Sequence record: OL656110.1 | DNA: 64,000 nt | Direction: 5' to 3' (one strand) | Origin: Escherichia phage vB_EcoM-RPN242 | In this document: piece by piece, positions 1,952 to 24,800 of the stretch | Position numbering within the stretch: position 1 is the stretch's first letter | Layout: every line of letters starts with the position of its first letter | Position numbers and translations under genes: made by a program | Notes under the pieces: model-generated | Told to the model about the DNA's origin: nothing | Databases searched by the model: none | What the model saw: only the letters and a program-made list of their open reading frames with translations

Positions 1952-2222
1952 AATAGCACCTTTGCTGTGGAGATATTTTGTGACCCTGATGCGCGGGATC
2001 AGTAGATTGTTGTTGGCATGCTCGATGCTCTTGTTTACGAGCTGTCGCATCTTTGTCACGCCAATAATTTCTGTTTCCGAACTCTGGAACCCAGAAGTGC
2101 GCACTGTACCTGTGACGTTGTCGGCCAGCGTTCCCACTTGTAACAAGGGTATGCTGGACATCATCGTGCAAGAGTTCCAGCCCTTCCAGAAGCTCGTACC
2201 TTTAGGTTGCTTTGATGAGAAC

Positions 2223-2630
2223 ATGAGCACCCTCAAGCCATACTGGAAGACCACAATTCCTCTCCTGCGGCATGGCGATGAAGGGAAGATTCCATACCTA
2301 TCAGCAAGTATTTATTACTCTCAGAACAACAGCATCATTATCACTTTTAATCCATCATTCCATGCCAAGCTGAAGCAACACATGGTTGGGCGACTGGATA
2401 CAACATCAGATATAATCGTGACGTTCAAGATCATGAATGACTCGGATAAACCAGTACGAATCGCAACTCAGGGTGTGTTCGTTAACAACGACGCGGTTGG
2501 AAATGGGATGAGTATCTTTGAAGTTAACCCAGGGGGAACGATCTTGATCAGACTGAGTAATGTGGGTGTGAACTCCCTGCTGTTGGATGGCATCGAACCA
2601 GTGGGAGTTCTTCCGGCGCGGGAGCACTGA
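2223..2630 (+). CDS. hypothetical protein, about 135 aa, on the opposite strand
   Basis: C-terminal two-thirds of plus ORF 1815..2630 looks protein-like (IIITFNPSF..., IVTFKIMNDSDKPVRIATQG...) while the overlapping minus frames are W/H-rich; start uncertain (2151 or 2223). Confidence 0.3.
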   Translation: MSTLKPYWKTTIPLLRHGDEGKIPYLSASIYYSQNNSIIITFNPSFHAKLKQHMVGRLDTTSDIIVTFKIMNDSDKPVRIATQGVFVNNDAVGNGMSIFEVNPGGTILIRLSNVGVNSLLLDGIEPVGVLPAREH

Positions 2631-18856: not shown

Positions 18857-19552
18857 TCAATCTCCAGGATGATGTACACCGTCTTTGTCAACACGGAACC
18901 ACTCCGGCAGTTCCGTCCACGGTGTTTTCAAATCATTAGACATTTCGATAATTATCTCTTTGATCCCGTTAGGATCCCCGCCTCCCTCGTTGTCCACCCA
19001 ATAGTCATACCCGTAGATGAAGCCGCTCAGCTGGAACATGAAGGAGCAGTCGACGTGTGGTGAATCAGAAGCATCCCCTTCCCAGTTATCGGACATCTGG
19101 TGGCTGATCAGTTGGATCTTGATCTTCTGGTCTTGCTGTAGTGTATCGTTGTCCTTGATACCACAGTCTAGAGAGGGAGTGAATACCGAATAAACCTGCT
19201 CTAGCACCTGTAACATCTCAACCAATTTCTTGGTTCGGATATTGTACTCAAAATCGATAATCAGGGGGATTCGCTGCTTCGCCCCTGCTGTTGGTGTCGA
19301 TTGTCGATTGTGGTACGTCTTCGTCACCTGTTTGTTGATCTCAAACTGGCCAAAAGAGAATGTCGCAAATGGAAGCATGTTGGACGGCACGTTCCTGTTG
19401 AGGTCATTGCGTCTCCCGATGGCCATGTGTAATGGGACTTCCATAAGACCACGCTCTGTGTTCACCTTCAGATCAGACATAATGGTGGCAAACAGATTGA
19501 TGTATTTCATCAATGAATCATGGTAGAAGTAATTTTCAAATGGTCTGGCCAT
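18857..19552 (-). CDS. neck/tail-completion protein (gp15 position)
   Basis: 231 aa; synteny only. Confidence 0.45.
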   Translation of the reverse strand: MARPFENYFYHDSLMKYINLFATIMSDLKVNTERGLMEVPLHMAIGRRNDLNRNVPSNMLPFATFSFGQFEINKQVTKTYHNRQSTPTAGAKQRIPLIIDFEYNIRTKKLVEMLQVLEQVYSVFTPSLDCGIKDNDTLQQDQKIKIQLISHQMSDNWEGDASDSPHVDCSFMFQLSGFIYGYDYWVDNEGGGDPNGIKEIIIEMSNDLKTPWTELPEWFRVDKDGVHHPGD

Positions 19553-19554
19553 GA

Positions 19555-20205
19555 TTATTCTCCAAAGTCGATCTTCATATTGTCTGTTGCAAGCCCCTTC
19601 TCAAGATCATCTGCTAAAGCATTGTCGGTCTGCAGAGAAGAATCCTTGTACACGTCCGGTTCGTTCTCTTCGTCCAAGATGGACAGACGTTTGTCGATAT
19701 CGTCGATCTCCGGAACGCCCGTATCGAAGTTTTCGTTGCCGTACTGGAACAACGTGCACGGCAGAGAGAACGTATACCATTTGCCAAATTGCATGAAGTC
19801 TTCATCGTTGTTCGGGTTGTTGACCTTGAAGATCTTGTTCGCCAGTGGTAGATAGATCAGGTCACCTTCCTGAGGTTGTTGTTCAAACCCAACACCGTTG
19901 CCTATCACCTCGGCAAATCGGCGGCGCGAGATAGAGAACGTCACTTCGTCTTGCAATTGGATACCCCCAAACTTCTCCCACATCTGGGTGTTGAAGCCCT
20001 GATAATCCTGCATGTACGCTTCGATGTCGAACGCCTGGTCGAATCTGTGGTTAGCGTCGTTGGTGATAGGAAATTTTTCAACGATGGAACGGGGTATATA
20101 CTTGATGTCTATCCCGCGCAACTCAATCATTTCCTGTACCAAATCTTCAATCAGCTTCTGTGTGCCTTGGTGATTGGTGGCGTTGAAATATTTAGAAGTG
20201 GCCAT
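19555..20205 (-). CDS. neck protein (gp14 position)
   Basis: 216 aa; synteny only; late promoter upstream. Confidence 0.45.
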   Translation of the reverse strand: MATSKYFNATNHQGTQKLIEDLVQEMIELRGIDIKYIPRSIVEKFPITNDANHRFDQAFDIEAYMQDYQGFNTQMWEKFGGIQLQDEVTFSISRRRFAEVIGNGVGFEQQPQEGDLIYLPLANKIFKVNNPNNDEDFMQFGKWYTFSLPCTLFQYGNENFDTGVPEIDDIDKRLSILDEENEPDVYKDSSLQTDNALADDLEKGLATDNMKIDFGE

Positions 20206-20224
20206 ATCAATACCCTCAATTTTG

Positions 20225-20235
20225 AAGGTATTTAG
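20225..20235 (-). promoter_or_regulatory. late promoter CTAAATACCTT with inverted repeat to ribosome-binding site
   Basis: CTAAATACCTTCAAAATTGAGGGTATTGAT-ATG on the minus strand. Confidence 0.5.
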
Positions 20236-20264
20236 TCGAAGTTTATTCTTTTGAGGAATAGCTC

Positions 20265-20477
20265 ATGCAAGTGGAAGACATCAAAGAAGTTCGCAGCGGT
20301 CGTCGCGTCCGAATCATCTGTGTGGACGCCAAGATTGGAGGTGGTGATTACGACATCGTCGGTCTGGTGAAAGAAGTAGATGGCACAGACTTCATTGAAT
20401 GGTGGAACTCCAAAGACAAGACAGAAGACGGTCTGCTGCGTGGTAGTGGCAACGGAAACCTGGATTTGAAAATCTAA
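20265..20477 (+). CDS. small hypothetical protein, 70 aa, opposite strand inside the late operon
   Basis: ATG with GAGGAA upstream; followed immediately by a strong hairpin and T-run. Confidence 0.5.
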   Translation: MQVEDIKEVRSGRRVRIICVDAKIGGGDYDIVGLVKEVDGTDFIEWWNSKDKTEDGLLRGSGNGNLDLKI

Positions 20478-20478
20478 A

Positions 20479-20507
20479 AGAAGGGCGGGAACCCGCCCTT
20501 CTTTTAC
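20479..20507. terminator. bidirectional terminator hairpin AAGGGCGGGAACCCGCCCTT
   Basis: Lies between convergent gene ends (plus 20477, minus 20504); T-run on the plus side. Confidence 0.65.
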
Positions 20508-21256
20508 CCCATGTAGAAGTCGATAGGGTACTGCTGACCAGTACGCAATTCTTCCTCTAAACGCTCGATCTCCGCTTCAGCCTCACTGAACATACTATCG
20601 CCATCCAGCTCGATACCGCCAGGGAGACGGATGCCTCTTGCCTTCTTGAGCACTTCTGCCCAGCGGCGCTTGACCAACGCAGTTGCATATGCCTTCAGCC
20701 ACATATCATTCCATGCTTCTTCATTACCCTCAACCTCTGGGTCGATGTTCTGGAAGCATTTGAACGCCAACACCTCGTCCTTTGTCAGGGCGAATTGTGG
20801 GTAGAGTTTGCGCTGGAATTTCTTGTAAACGAAGGTGCGTTTCACGTTCAGCACACTGGTGATGTCAGACAAACGCTGTTGCATTGAAACATAGTCGACC
20901 AAGCGGATGGAAACGAGGGCGGCCTTTGGTACCAACATGGCTTGGGCCATCTGCCATTGAGGGGTTGCCCAGTTACCGATCGATTCAATCGGAGGGCCAA
21001 CGATGACTTCAACCACGTCGTCGATGTCTTTGGGGAATTCGATGTAACCGTTGGTGATAGTTTCTTCAGTCACCTGGTGAACAAAGAATGCGTCCTGACT
21101 GCCATCACGATGATACTCCCAAAACTTCTGTAGAGCATCGTCTACAGCATCCGAAACTTGCGTTGGGTCAAGGTTGATCTGAATTACAGGTGCCCCCAAT
21201 TTCTTGAGAATGTAATTCATAAATCCTTTACGATCAACAATAGAATTAACGGCCAT
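20504..21256 (-). CDS. neck protein (gp13 position)
   Basis: About 250 aa from ATG 21256 (AAGGGGAA upstream); track start 21316 is over-extended. Confidence 0.45.
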   Translation of the reverse strand: MAVNSIVDRKGFMNYILKKLGAPVIQINLDPTQVSDAVDDALQKFWEYHRDGSQDAFFVHQVTEETITNGYIEFPKDIDDVVEVIVGPPIESIGNWATPQWQMAQAMLVPKAALVSIRLVDYVSMQQRLSDITSVLNVKRTFVYKKFQRKLYPQFALTKDEVLAFKCFQNIDPEVEGNEEAWNDMWLKAYATALVKRRWAEVLKKARGIRLPGGIELDGDSMFSEAEAEIERLEEELRTGQQYPIDFYMG

Positions 21257-21584
21257 TGCCATTCCCCTTGTTGCTCTGGATATCAGCGACGGTGATACGT
21301 AAAGTGCGAACGTCATCGGATAGACTGTTGCTATTGAGTTTCAACTCAGCAACGTTCTGCTTGACGTAGTTAACGTCTGTGTTTAACACAGCAATCTTCT
21401 CATTCATATCGTTCACCTTGGTGAGGATTAGGTTGACCTTGTTGGAGTCACGCTCAACCACATCAAGGCGATTCTCAAATTTACCCATCATCCAAACAAC
21501 CGAGCCAACAGAGACTATCGTCGCCGTCAGCACCCCGGTGAGGATCGCTTTCACATCGATCACAGTGTCAGTTTGGGCTGCCAT
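21246..21584 (-). CDS. small membrane-anchored coiled-coil protein
   Basis: 112 aa from ATG 21584 (CAGGAGG upstream); hydrophobic segment ILTGVLTATIVSVGSVVWMM. Confidence 0.45.
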   Translation of the reverse strand: MAAQTDTVIDVKAILTGVLTATIVSVGSVVWMMGKFENRLDVVERDSNKVNLILTKVNDMNEKIAVLNTDVNYVKQNVAELKLNSNSLSDDVRTLRITVADIQSNKGNGNGR

Positions 21585-21816
21585 CTTGGCCTCCTGACGG
21601 GAGTTCAATCCCGAGGTGTTCCGCCATGAGTTGTACCATCGCTGTCAGTTGATCTATTTGCGCTGCCTGCGCTGCAATAGTTCTGTCCTTTTCTTCCTGA
21701 TTTCGACGAGCGTTCAATGCTGCCAAACCGGCAGCATTGTCTGTGCAGATGATAGCCCCAGGGCAAGAGCTACTTCTCATCATCGATGCATGCCCTTGTA
21801 CTTTTACACCACGCAT
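21568..21816 (-). CDS. hypothetical protein, 82 aa
   Basis: ATG with AGAGGA upstream. Confidence 0.4.
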   Translation of the reverse strand: MRGVKVQGHASMMRSSSCPGAIICTDNAAGLAALNARRNQEEKDRTIAAQAAQIDQLTAMVQLMAEHLGIELPSGGQDGSPN

Positions 21817-21865
21817 GATAATATCCTCTGTTAATGGCGGGGCAACCCCGCCTTGTTAATACTAC

Positions 21866-24800
21866 TTATGCCAGAGCAATCAAACGGAAATCTTTGAATG
21901 ACGGCGGTGCTATGCGGTTGCCTCTGACCAGCAGGCGGATCTTCAGACCAACGAAAGGATTGGTGCTGTCTACAGTCTTGTCATACTCATATTCGAAGAA
22001 TGCAGAACCGTCATTGACCAGAGGGGATGTCGGTGTCACAGTTTCCCATGCCACATTATCCATCTCCTGACCTGCGCGCAGCAGTTTAACCTGCACAGTC
22101 ATTGAAGACTGAGAAGGTAGCATCGCGCCGAAGTATTGCTTCAGAGTGGTGCAAGGGTTATCGAATCCGATATCCTTGGTCACATAGCTGAACACATCTT
22201 CAAACGGATCCACACCGTAGGTGTTGAAGATGATAGTGAAATCATCACCGTCGATCATTGGAGCCGTGTAGACATTACTCTCGTTGCGAGTCATGGTTGC
22301 ACGAACCTGGAAGTCGCCCACCTGACGATAGATACCTTCCGTCGGCAGAGACACGTCCGTATCGGATTCGAACTCAACCCAATCAGAGAATGAGTTGGAG
22401 GTCGCATCGCGATAGCGGTATTCCAGTTTCAATACAGATCCTTCTAGGGCTGAATTGGTGACGCTTGCGTAGAACATGTCTACCAAGTAGTTGCCTAGGA
22501 AAGAAGCCGCTTCACCACCAATCTGACCGTCGGAGTCGGCGTTGGAACTCAGAACGAATTTGAACGTCGTGAACGTCGCATCAGTCACAGTGTGTTGAGC
22601 GTTCAGTTGCTCAGGAGTGAAACCGCAACCACCCGTCAACCCAGACAGAGTAACACTTTCACCCGCAGTCAGGCCATGCCCCGGAGCGTACACAGTAACA
22701 GTTGAAGAACCGTTGACACATTTCACGGTGTTCAGACCCAGAGGGCGGATCTTCGGACCGACTTTAGCATCGAAGGTCACGATGTTTGAACCAGCGGAGA
22801 AGTTACAGCGATACACACGGAACTTCATATCGGCAGTCTGGTTTGGAGTCCAGGTCGTACCATTTGAAGATGTGAAGAACACGCCAGTGTACGGCTGTTT
22901 GGCAATGAACTCGTTGGTCAGCAAGTTCTTCTTACCCATCTCTGCGATGTATGCGTTGTAGTCCTGAGTGTTGGCCAAGAGAACAATCGCGAACTCAGTC
23001 TGCGCCTGCAGATACACAGGATAATCAAACTTGAACATCGTCGGCACAGAAGAGTCTGTGGAGATGGAAACTTCTGATGGATTCAGAGTCTTACGAGTGA
23101 CGACAGTCGTCGCTGGCAGACCATTGCTCATCTCACGGATTTCCAGAGTGATCGGGATATCACGGGACTTGGTAGAGAAGAACACTTCAATACCTTCGAT
23201 GTATTCGCCGCCGATATTGGTGGCAACCATGAAGGACTGGGCGATAGGATCTTTCCACTTCGCGACTTCAACCGTCTCTGTTTTGTTTTCCGTAGACTTG
23301 GTCGCAGTGTATCCCAGGACGCGAGTGTTGACATAAGTCTTCTGGATGCCCTGTTTCTTGCCGAAGGACTTATGAACAGCCTCGGCATTGGTCAGGGTAT
23401 CATCAGCAGACTTGCTATCCACAGGACTGTCAGTCAGACGGAAGACGTTGTCGCCCGTGTTAAACTTGATAGTCTCGTTCTGAGGAACCGCAAACACACC
23501 TTTGATGTTACCGTTGGCATCAGTGTTCAACGCACCACCCAGTACACCACCGTTTGGGGTACAGTACGCGCTCACATCACGCCCAGAGAAGAACGGATAC
23601 ACACGAGTAAATGGACGCAGGCCTGTGGCTTCGAAGTTGATGTTCGTTTTGCGCATGTATGGGATAACCTGCGTTTCAACGATCTGCTCGCCAGTCAGGG
23701 TAGTGGTCGTCTTGTCGGTGTACGTGTACGTGGTGACGTCACGGGTAGACACAGTCGTGCGGTAGCGATAGCCCCACCATACACCACCTGCACCATGCGG
23801 TTCCCACACACGCTCAGACACAGACACAGTACGCCATGTGCCATACACAGAACCTTCTTTGATCGCACCACGGGTGTTGATCGTTTCGTTGACCACACGT
23901 GGGGTGACATAGTAGTTCTCAAACCAGTAATCAGTAGTTGGGTTCAGCTTCAAGAAACCTTCCCAGTTGAACACCGCATACGGGTTCACGTTGATGGTCG
24001 TGGTTGCATAGTCCTGGCGGACAGAGATCTCACGGGTGTAGTTGCATACAACCATGCCATCCTGAACGTTGTTCCAACCGACTGGCGTCAGGTCAATCGC
24101 GTTCTGCTGAACAAACGGGCGTAGGCGACCATTGTCAGTGTCGATTGAACCCACCCAGTCTGCAGACAAATCGTCGATCAGACGGAAGTCTTTGAACGGG
24201 TCTGCTGCGATACCGTTCTTGAAGCGCGGGTTGCCAGTAATTGGATCGAACACCTGTTGTGACATCGCCGAGGATTCCAGCTGAGACAGTGAGGTGTAAT
24301 ATTCGACATTGGAGATACGGGTCTCCAGTTTACCGATATCGCGCATCGTGTAGCGGCGGTTGTCGATAGTACGAATCTGGATGTCGTCAATGTTGGCCGT
24401 GTATGGTGGGATCATCAATTCATACAGGCGCATGCCGTTGTCTGGGATCGCAGGGGAAGCCAGGTTGTTGGAACTCACACCACGAGCAACGTTGAACACG
24501 CCGTTGTCTGCCAGATACACAGCATCAATACGAGGCAGATAGTACTCTGCATCTAGGATGATCGCGGTGTTCGGGCGAACCATGTCCGTGTCAGACGCTC
24601 CGCTGGTGATCTTGGGACGGAAGTCCAGACTGTCGGCCAACCCATACACAGTACCAGAACTGGATGAAACATAGTTCGGGATGTCTGGGTAGTTGATGGA
24701 CGAATAGGAGTCCGCTGTGAAGAAATCACCAGAGCTGTGAGCGAAATACTGATACACCACCGTGAACGTCCCTGAAATGGCTCCTGTGGACGATATGAGG

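What the first reader, a model, noticed from the sequence alone, without database searches (positions are those of the whole stretch)
20265..20507. Opposite-strand 70-aa gene inside the late structural operon
A plus-strand ORF (MQVEDIKEVRSGRRVRIICVDAKIGGGDYDIVGLVKEVDGTDFIEWWNSK...) with a good ribosome-binding site sits between the two neck genes on the minus strand and ends at a strong hairpin that can terminate transcription in both directions. Such morons in structural operons are often accessory or anti-defence genes.
Basis: seen in the sequence. Interest (0 to 1): 0.45.

Follow-up and report, generated by a model that had tools for sequence, protein, structure and literature searches.

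The report
Conserved small gene between phage neck genes
The 70-codon reverse-strand ORF is a real gene ending at a two-way terminator hairpin, but it is a long-annotated "hypothetical protein" found in essentially every Ackermannviridae (ViI-like) phage, so it is a core gene of unknown function, not a sporadic add-on.

Summary
ORF 20265..20477 (+) has a GAGGA ribosome-binding site and lies between the T4-type neck genes gp14 (19555..20205, -) and gp13 (20504..21256, -). A perfect 15+15 nt palindrome (20475..20506) runs from its stop codon to the gp13 stop codon. It folds at about -23 kcal/mol on either strand.

The window is an Agtrevirus-like Ackermannviridae phage. The ORF is 100% identical to Shigella phage AG3 orf201 and matches PHROG 4466 (unknown function). 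It is present in about 271 of 272 family genomes, at this site in all 24 Ackermannviridae loci examined. Residues 1-48 are under strong purifying selection; residues 49-66 are variable.

The hairpin is conserved with compensatory changes. A late promoter, CTAAATACC (20227..20235, -), restarts gp14. The LIMEstone1 paper (2012) already described this insertion with its own promoter and terminator.

The "moron or anti-defence" reading is weak. The gene is core, its composition matches its neighbours, and it was not detected in virions. More distant homologues sit in arrays of small non-structural genes.

The predicted fold is a small SH3/Tudor-like beta-barrel. It is distantly related to proteins pre-annotated with Pfam PF26890 in the protein database. 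Function and the plus-strand promoter remain unresolved. Already known; low interest.

The parts
20265..20477 (+). 70-aa CDS (ORF70). Equals AG3 orf201, Vi01 CBW38033 and PHROG 4466. Acidic, about 7.8 kDa, predicted SH3/Tudor-like beta-barrel.
20253..20257 (+). Shine-Dalgarno GAGGA, 8 nt upstream of the ATG. Conserved (GAGGA or GGAGGA) in all genera examined.
20475..20506 (.). Perfect palindrome TAAAAGAAGGGCGGG-AA-CCCGCCCTTCTTTTA, read as a bidirectional intrinsic terminator. It embeds the stop codons of ORF70 and gp13.
   Evidence: Both orientations are annotated as terminators in AG3.
20227..20235 (-). Family-type late promoter motif CTAAATACC, 22 nt upstream of the gp14 ATG. It restarts late transcription after the terminator.
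   Evidence: (26 matches in the window against 9.6 expected), (TATTTAGT invariant across genera)
20209..20232 (.). Near-palindrome AATACCCTCAA / TTGAAGGTATT covering the gp14 RBS and late promoter. It is part of the 59-nt divergent control region.
20222..20249 (+). Weak sigma-70-like candidate TTGAAG-N16-TATTCT (8 of 12). It is not reliable, because the predicted start would fall inside the RBS and the -10 element is not kept in register in other genera.
   Evidence: Read; below the threshold.
19555..20205 (-). gp14-type neck protein (head closure), divergent from ORF70.
20504..21256 (-). gp13-type neck protein (head-tail adaptor), convergent with ORF70.

Best explanation
ORF70 is a real small gene, conserved across the family, non-structural, and forming its own short plus-strand transcription unit inside the late morphogenesis block of an Ackermannviridae (Agtrevirus-like) phage.

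Shown:
- It encodes a conserved protein. Residues 1-48 and the last strand are constrained; the loop at 49-66 is free to vary.
- It ends at a conserved palindromic hairpin shaped like a two-way intrinsic terminator.
- A family late promoter (CTAAATACC) sits 22 nt upstream of gp14 on the other strand.

Inferred:
- The hairpin stops both the ORF70 transcript and the late minus-strand transcript that ends with gp13. The late promoter then restarts transcription of gp14, gp15 and the terminase genes. The cassette therefore splits the neck and packaging genes into two late units.
- The protein is an acidic 7.8-kDa single-domain SH3/Tudor-like beta-barrel. It most likely works in the cytoplasm by binding a partner protein, possibly part of the host or phage gene-expression machinery, and is not part of the virion.
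- It is probably expressed with timing different from the flanking late genes, because no late-promoter motif precedes it on its own strand.

The partner, the timing and the plus-strand promoter are not established.
For: Gene reality and constraint:
- 284 records carry it.
- 100% amino-acid identity to AG3 with 6 synonymous and 0 non-synonymous changes.
- dN/dS about 0.07-0.1 for codons 1-48 against other genera.
- 14 invariant residues in the 23-sequence alignment, which includes the Vibrio phage homologue.

Core status:
- Per-host counts equal those of gp14.
- Same position in all 24 Ackermannviridae loci examined.

Terminator:
- Energy and z-scores.
- A hairpin of -16 to -23 kcal/mol at the same place in every genus, with GGCGGG/CCCGCC changing to GCCGGG/CCCGGC and a wholly different stem in phiEa2809.

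Late promoter.

No plus-strand late motif within 1.1 kb upstream, apart from one TTAAATATT 441 nt upstream inside the gp14 gene of CBA120.

Non-structural:
- Absent from the 39 virion proteins of LIMEstone1, although gp13 and gp14 were detected.
- Closer non-Ackermann homologues lie in co-directional arrays of small genes, next to a sigma factor, ProQ-like, DksA/TraR-type, hydrolase, exonuclease and hmdU-kinase genes.
- In Vibrio phage K476 the homologue is unlinked to the neck genes.

Fold:
- AlphaFold model with pLDDT 79, four beta-strands plus a short C-terminal strand.
- pI 4.8 according to AG3 Table S1.
Against: - There are no expression data. The library holds no Ackermannviridae transcriptome.
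- No convincing plus-strand promoter was found. The best intergenic sigma-70-like site scores 8 of 12 and is badly placed relative to the RBS. The promoter scan of the region gives no more sites than shuffled sequence.
- Small proteins are often missed by virion mass spectrometry, so absence from the LIMEstone1 list is weak evidence.
- In genomes carrying the inserted endonuclease gene, a plus-strand TTTAAATAT late-like motif upstream could give late expression of ORF70.
Confidence: 0.6

Rival explanations
1. Accessory or anti-defence 'moron': an independently transcribed add-on gene that counters a host defence system and is not needed for basic growth.
For: The protein is small and acidic, with its own terminator, and lies on the opposite strand to its neighbours. 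Loop 49-66 evolves with dN at or above dS between genera, as expected for a host-interaction surface. Homologues in other phages sit in early-type arrays of small genes, where anti-defence genes are common.
Against: It is present in about 271 of 272 family genomes, at this site in every Ackermannviridae locus inspected. Composition is the same as its neighbours. The N-terminal domain is strongly constrained. There is no match to any named family in Pfam, NCBIfam or annotated PHROGs, and no literature link.
Confidence: 0.15
2. Neck or head-completion accessory factor: an assembly chaperone or a minor, easily lost virion component that acts with gp13 and gp14. This would explain why it is kept between them.
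For: Linkage to gp13 and gp14 held in every locus inspected from five Ackermannviridae genera. Some records label the region 'neck protein', though that is probably annotation overlap.
Against: It lies on the opposite strand with no late-promoter motif. It was not among the 39 LIMEstone1 virion proteins, while gp13 and gp14 were. In Vibrio phage K476 and in metagenomic relatives, the homologue is far from the neck genes and sits among non-structural genes. It evolves faster than its neighbours: 57% identity against 80-86% between Agtrevirus and Kuttervirus.
Confidence: 0.12
3. The functional element is the regulatory cassette (terminator plus divergent promoter region), and the ORF is a tolerated passenger or a remnant of a mobile element at a homing-endonuclease hotspot.
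For: The site does accept a mobile endonuclease gene in LIMEstone1 and several Kutterviruses, with an identical junction across genera. The terminator and late promoter are conserved.
Against: The protein sequence itself is under purifying selection, with 14 invariant residues out to a Vibrio phage. It belongs to a wide protein family, with 62 cluster representatives at E<=1e-3 and 1451 proteins found with the broader profile. The ORF is universal, whereas the endonuclease gene is sporadic.
Confidence: 0.05

Closest known systems
Shigella phage phiSboM-AG3 orf201 / Salmonella phage Vi01 CBW38033 / LIMEstone1 ORF153 (PHROG 4466, 'unknown function')
   Same: The same gene. It is 100% identical to AG3 orf201 in protein sequence, in the same position between gp14 and gp13, with the same two-way terminator annotated in AG3. 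It gives a full-length PHROG 4466 match at E 5e-35. [quoted passage not shown]
   Different: Nothing substantive. LIMEstone1 and some Kutterviruses carry an extra endonuclease gene upstream, which this window lacks.
Pfam PF26890 (Phage_HP1_YO09) superfamily of small phage and prophage proteins
   Same: A profile built from the window protein and its distant relatives finds 1451 proteins at E<=1e-3. Most of the best hits carry a precomputed PF26890 annotation. They share the core motif TRDGRxVRILCxD...YPVVGLV...DGxE..W...DL, present as one copy or as 2-3 tandem copies.
   Different: The Ackermannviridae proteins themselves carry no PF26890 annotation. They have their own FIEWW signature and are single-domain. 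The family has no known function, and the local Pfam copy lacks the model, so direct scoring was impossible.
Tudor/SH3-like RNA-polymerase-interacting domains (CarD/CdnL N-terminal domain, Mfd RID, UvrD C-terminal domain, NusG KOW)
   Different: Sequence identity is 3-13%. No Pfam hit to these families even at E 10, and Foldseek against PDB is not significant. RNA polymerase binding is untested. The resemblance is at fold level only.
Morons of lambdoid phages (own promoter and terminator, inserted between conserved genes)
   Same: A short independent unit inserted between two genes that are adjacent in T4, with a terminator at its end.
   Different: It is universal in the family rather than patchy, its composition is native, and no promoter has been demonstrated.

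Membership tests
PHROG 4466 (Ackermannviridae small hypothetical protein) | Full-length significant match to the family profile | tested here: met
   E 5e-35, 120 bits, residues 1-70 on profile positions 1-70 of 70
PHROG 4466 (Ackermannviridae small hypothetical protein) | Conserved position between gp14 and gp13, on the opposite strand | tested here: met
   AG3, LIMEstone1, CBA120, phiEa2809, 0507-KN2-1 and 19 IMG/VR loci
Pfam PF26890 Phage_HP1_YO09 | Score above the family's gathering threshold | tested here: inconclusive
   The model is absent from the local Pfam copy. The close homologues (P0001-P0019) carry no precomputed Pfam annotation. Distant profile hits carry PF26890.
Moron (independent add-on transcription unit) | Own terminator | tested here: met
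   Conserved hairpin with a T-run
Moron (independent add-on transcription unit) | Own promoter | tested here: inconclusive
   Only an 8-of-12 sigma-70-like site, badly placed relative to the RBS. The scan finds no more sites than shuffles. No late motif on the + strand.
Moron (independent add-on transcription unit) | Present in some genomes and absent from close relatives | tested here: not met
   Per-host record counts equal those of gp14: 164/164, 28/28, 20/20, 44/45
Moron (independent add-on transcription unit) | Composition different from the flanking genes | tested here: not met
   G+C 0.45-0.51 against 0.41-0.55 in the flanks; only the skews flip with the coding strand
Bidirectional intrinsic terminator | G+C-rich stem flanked by an A-run upstream and a T-run downstream, so that both strands read stem plus U-tract | tested here: met
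   TAAAAGAA-GGGCGGG-AA-CCCGCCC-TTCTTTTA; -23.3 and -23.4 kcal/mol
Bidirectional intrinsic terminator | Structure conserved through compensatory change | tested here: met
   Three stem variants plus an unrelated stem in phiEa2809, all folding at -16 to -23 kcal/mol. Judged by inspection, not by a formal covariation count.
Bidirectional intrinsic terminator | Transcripts end there in vivo in both directions | not testable with these tools
   Needs Term-seq or 3'-end mapping
CarD/TRCF-RID type RNA-polymerase-binding Tudor-like domain | Sequence-family membership | tested here: not met
CarD/TRCF-RID type RNA-polymerase-binding Tudor-like domain | Binding to the RNA polymerase beta subunit | not testable with these tools
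   Needs pull-down or co-structure
Virion (neck) protein | Detected in purified particles | tested here: not met
   LIMEstone1 ORF153 is absent from the 39-protein virion list, while ORF151 and ORF154 are present. This is literature evidence, and it is weak for a 7.8-kDa protein.
T4-type late gene | Late promoter motif (TATAAATA-like; here CTAAATAcc) upstream on the coding strand | tested here: not met
   None on the + strand within 1.1 kb in the window or in 10 of 11 relatives; CBA120 has one TTAAATATT 441 nt upstream, inside gp14

The most novel reading that the evidence does not exclude
ORF70 is the founding, family-wide member of an uncharacterised class of phage Tudor/SH3-like mini-proteins (PHROG 4466, related to PF26890) that dock onto the host RNA polymerase or another gene-expression component, as CarD, Mfd and UvrD Tudor-like domains do. 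They would help switch the cell to phage transcription. Its promoter, back-to-back with and overlapping the gp14 late promoter, would be shut off when late transcription begins.
Probability: 0.07. Interest if true: 0.55.

Novelty: already known. Interest (0 to 1): 0.17.

Why it matters
This has limited importance. It confirms that the first-stage reader can pick out a real small gene and terminator from raw sequence. But the gene has been annotated since 2010-2011 as a conserved hypothetical protein, and its placement was already remarked on in the literature.

The residual value is that a 70-aa protein kept in virtually every Ackermannviridae genome is a reasonable target for a knockout or pull-down study. 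It also belongs to a large uncharacterised phage beta-barrel superfamily. This phage family is widely used for biocontrol and therapy against Salmonella, E. coli O157, Klebsiella and Dickeya.

Tried and rejected
- Pfam, NCBIfam and PHROG scans of the ORF gave only PHROG 4466, of unknown function.
- A sequence-profile search of PDB gave only a chance hit at E 0.87.
- Foldseek against PDB was not significant.
- BFVD returned only uncharacterised viral proteins.
- Rfam on the region gave only a meaningless below-threshold miRNA hit on the hairpin.
- Five of the six literature searches, four for Ackermannviridae transcriptomes and one for anti-defence work, found nothing usable.
- The plus-strand promoter stayed unresolved. 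The sigma-70 scan finds no more sites than shuffles, and nothing in the 59-nt intergenic region. The hand-read TTGAAG-N16-TATTCT candidate was rejected as unreliable. No plus-strand late motif was found.
- A formal covariation count on the terminator was not run, because the MAFFT alignment was out of register. Compensatory changes were read by eye.
- The chance-ORF explanation was rejected on conservation and dN/dS.
- The recent foreign-acquisition explanation was rejected on composition and universality.

Full report
**Identity of the window.** Megablast of 19000-22000 finds 272 phage records. The window is 99.2-99.3% identical to Escherichia phages vB_EcoM-ZQ1, A221 and LHE287. It is 91.7% identical to Shigella phage phiSboM-AG3 (Ackermannviridae, Aglimvirinae, Agtrevirus). 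The surrounding minus-strand block is the T4-like morphogenesis region: gp6, tailspikes, a 1628-aa VriC-like protein, two small genes, gp13, gp14, gp15, gp16, gp17, gp18, gp19, gp20 and so on.

**The observation.**
- GAGGA lies 8 nt upstream of the ATG.
- The flanking genes are neck genes. 19555..20205 (-) hits Pfam T4_neck-protein (E 7e-27) and PHROG head closure Hc2. 20504..21256 (-) hits PHROG head-tail adaptor Ad2, annotated gp13 in AG3.
- The hairpin is a perfect 15+15 nt inverted repeat at 20475-20489 and 20492-20506. It folds at -23.3 kcal/mol on the + strand and -23.4 on the - strand, with z -6.1 and -5.2, and 0 of 200 shuffles fold as well.
- Its sequence, TAAAAGAAGGGCGGG-AA-CCCGCCCTTCTTTTA, begins with the ORF's stop codon and ends with the complement of the gp13 stop codon. 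Each strand therefore reads a G+C-rich stem followed by UUCUUUU.
- AG3's depositors annotated a rho-independent terminator in both orientations at the same place.
This is not the only reverse-strand gene in the block; 1980..2630 (+) is another.

**Is it a gene?** Yes.
- tblastn finds the frame in 284 phage records. Identity is 100% in AG3 and MK-13, 73% in Limestonevirus and 63-66% in Taipeivirus and Serratia phage. It is 55-58% in Kuttervirus, 53% in Erwinia phage phiEa2809 and 35% in Vibrio phage K476.
- The 23-sequence alignment has 14 invariant positions, including the Vibrio protein.
- Against AG3 there are 6 synonymous and no non-synonymous differences.
- Against other genera, codons 1-48 give dN 0.10-0.21 with dS above 1 or saturated, so dN/dS is about 0.07-0.1.
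- Codons 49-70 give dN about 1.3, so the loop is essentially unconstrained. D67 and K69 of the last strand are conserved.
- G+C is the same as in the flanks, and the purine skews flip to the plus strand over the ORF.

**Distribution.**
- The per-host record counts for the ORF (Salmonella 164, Klebsiella 44, Escherichia 28, Dickeya 20) equal those for gp14 at 60% identity or more (164, 45, 28, 20; 272 records).
- In all 24 Ackermannviridae loci examined, the ORF lies between gp14 and gp13 on the opposite strand.
- It evolves faster than its neighbours. Identity between this phage and Kutterviruses is 57% for the ORF, against 80-86% for gp13, gp14 and gp15.
- It is therefore a core gene of the family, not a sporadic insertion.

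**Regulatory anatomy.**
- The motif CTAAATACC is enriched in the window: 26 matches with at most one mismatch, against 9.6 expected. It sits 6-30 nt upstream of minus-strand structural-gene starts. One copy is at 20227-20235 (-), 22 nt upstream of the gp14 ATG.
- Its core, TATTTAGT on the plus strand, is invariant across genera.
- The hairpin is present at the same place in every genus, at -16 to -23 kcal/mol. It shows a G-C to C-G swap (GGCGGG/CCCGCC against GCCGGG/CCCGGC), and phiEa2809 has an unrelated stem.
- The simplest reading is inferred, not shown. Late minus-strand transcription that includes gp13 stops at the hairpin and restarts for gp14 onward, and the plus-strand ORF70 transcript stops at the same hairpin.
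- The plus-strand promoter is unresolved. The 59-nt intergenic region holds only TTGAAG-N16-TATTCT (8 of 12). Its predicted start would fall within the RBS, and its -10 element is not kept in register in Kutterviruses.
- The consensus scan finds as many sites as in shuffles.
- There is no late motif on the plus strand within 1.1 kb in the window or in 10 of 11 relatives. The exception is one TTAAATATT 441 nt upstream in CBA120, inside gp14.
- The conserved TTGAAGG is also one arm of the palindrome AATACCCTCAA/TTGAAGGTATT, which spans the gp14 RBS and promoter. Its conservation therefore need not reflect a -35 element.

**The protein.**
- There is no Pfam or NCBIfam hit. PHROG 4466 matches full-length at E 5e-35, with unknown function.
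- The AlphaFold2 model has mean pLDDT 79 and pTM 0.66. It has strands at 6-9, 14-24, 29-36 and 42-47 plus a short C-terminal strand, forming a small beta-barrel.
- Foldseek against PDB gives nothing below E 0.39.
- BFVD returns only uncharacterised phage proteins.
- AG3 Table S1 gives 7795 Da and pI 4.8. An acidic protein is more likely to bind protein than nucleic acid; this is inference.

**Wider family.**
- A profile search of 1.84 billion cluster representatives finds 62 proteins at E<=1e-3. The domain (residues 8-50) occurs alone, in two or three tandem copies, or fused to other regions.
- A broader profile finds 1451 proteins at E<=1e-3. Most of the best hits carry a precomputed PF26890 annotation (Phage_HP1_YO09) and have no functional name.
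- The local Pfam copy lacks that model.
- Contexts of the closest non-Ackermann homologues are co-directional arrays of small unknown genes. Their neighbours include an hmdU kinase, DUF2786, a sigma-70-type factor, ProQ-like, DksA/TraR-type zinc finger, a cell-wall hydrolase and an exonuclease.
- In Vibrio phage K476 the homologue lies about 100 kb from the gp14 homologue. It is again on the strand opposite to its neighbours.
- LIMEstone1 virion mass spectrometry detected gp14 (ORF151) and gp13 (ORF154) but not ORF153.
- Together these points argue for a non-structural, probably cytoplasmic role.

**Comparison with what is known.**
- The gene is AG3 orf201, a 'conserved hypothetical protein' similar to Vi01 CBW38033.
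- The finding is therefore already known as an annotated feature of unknown function.
- The moron label fails on distribution and composition. The anti-defence idea has no positive evidence, though the fast-evolving loop and the early-type contexts of relatives leave it open.

**Verdict.** This is a real but ordinary feature that is already annotated. My best explanation is a core, non-structural, partner-binding mini-protein in its own transcription unit, bounded by a shared two-way terminator, with a late promoter restarting gp14. Confidence is about 0.6 overall. It is above 0.9 for 'real conserved gene plus conserved hairpin' and much lower for the protein's mode of action.

Noticed in passing
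L002 2265-2972; L019 2253-2969; L022 2225-2935; L024 2040-2969 (absent from the window; insertion point corresponds to about window 20206-20222): In LIMEstone1 and several Kutterviruses, a 235-309 aa gene sits on the plus strand between gp14 and the ORF70 homologue. It has a CapR-homology domain plus T5orf172/MUG113 (GIY-YIG superfamily) and matches PHROG 681 'endonuclease'. The 76-nt junction upstream of it is 100% identical between a Dickeya phage and Salmonella phages whose genomes are only about 60% identical. This suggests a recently transferred free-standing homing-endonuclease cassette. LIMEstone1 also keeps a duplicated copy of the first five gp14 codons next to ORF153.
   Followed up: partly
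window 47671, 38081, 34813, 32151, 3394, 197 and 20209-20232: Most late promoters, CTAAATACCcc, are followed 10-25 nt later by an inverted copy, GGGGTATTT, placed just before the start codon. At gp14 this becomes the palindrome AATACCCTCAA/TTGAAGGTATT. Whether it is an RNA hairpin, an RBS context or a protein-binding site is unknown.
   Followed up: no
window 1980-2630 (+): A second reverse-strand gene lies inside the long minus-strand block, between the gp3 homologue and the next minus-strand gene. It is 216 aa, matches PHROG 3832 (unknown function) and equals AG3 orf172. AG3 annotates a stem-loop at its end, but the corresponding window segment does not fold better than shuffles.
   Followed up: partly
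window 21836-21852: A G+C-rich hairpin, GGCGGGG-CAA-CCCCGCC (-15.1 kcal/mol, z -3.0 on the minus strand), lies between the 1628-aa VriC-like gene and the 82-aa virion-protein gene. It has no clear T-run on the minus strand.
   Followed up: no
L006 2453-3174 (Vibrio phage K476): The distant ORF70 homologue (88 aa) forms a two-gene reverse-strand islet with a 158-aa gene of unknown function, next to a baseplate wedge gene and far from the neck genes. The reverse-strand islet arrangement therefore recurs in a different place.
   Followed up: partly
L004 1501-1713 (CBA120 RefSeq) and L005 1944-2192 (phiEa2809): The ORF70 homologue is not annotated in these two records, although the frame is intact and conserved.
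   Followed up: yes
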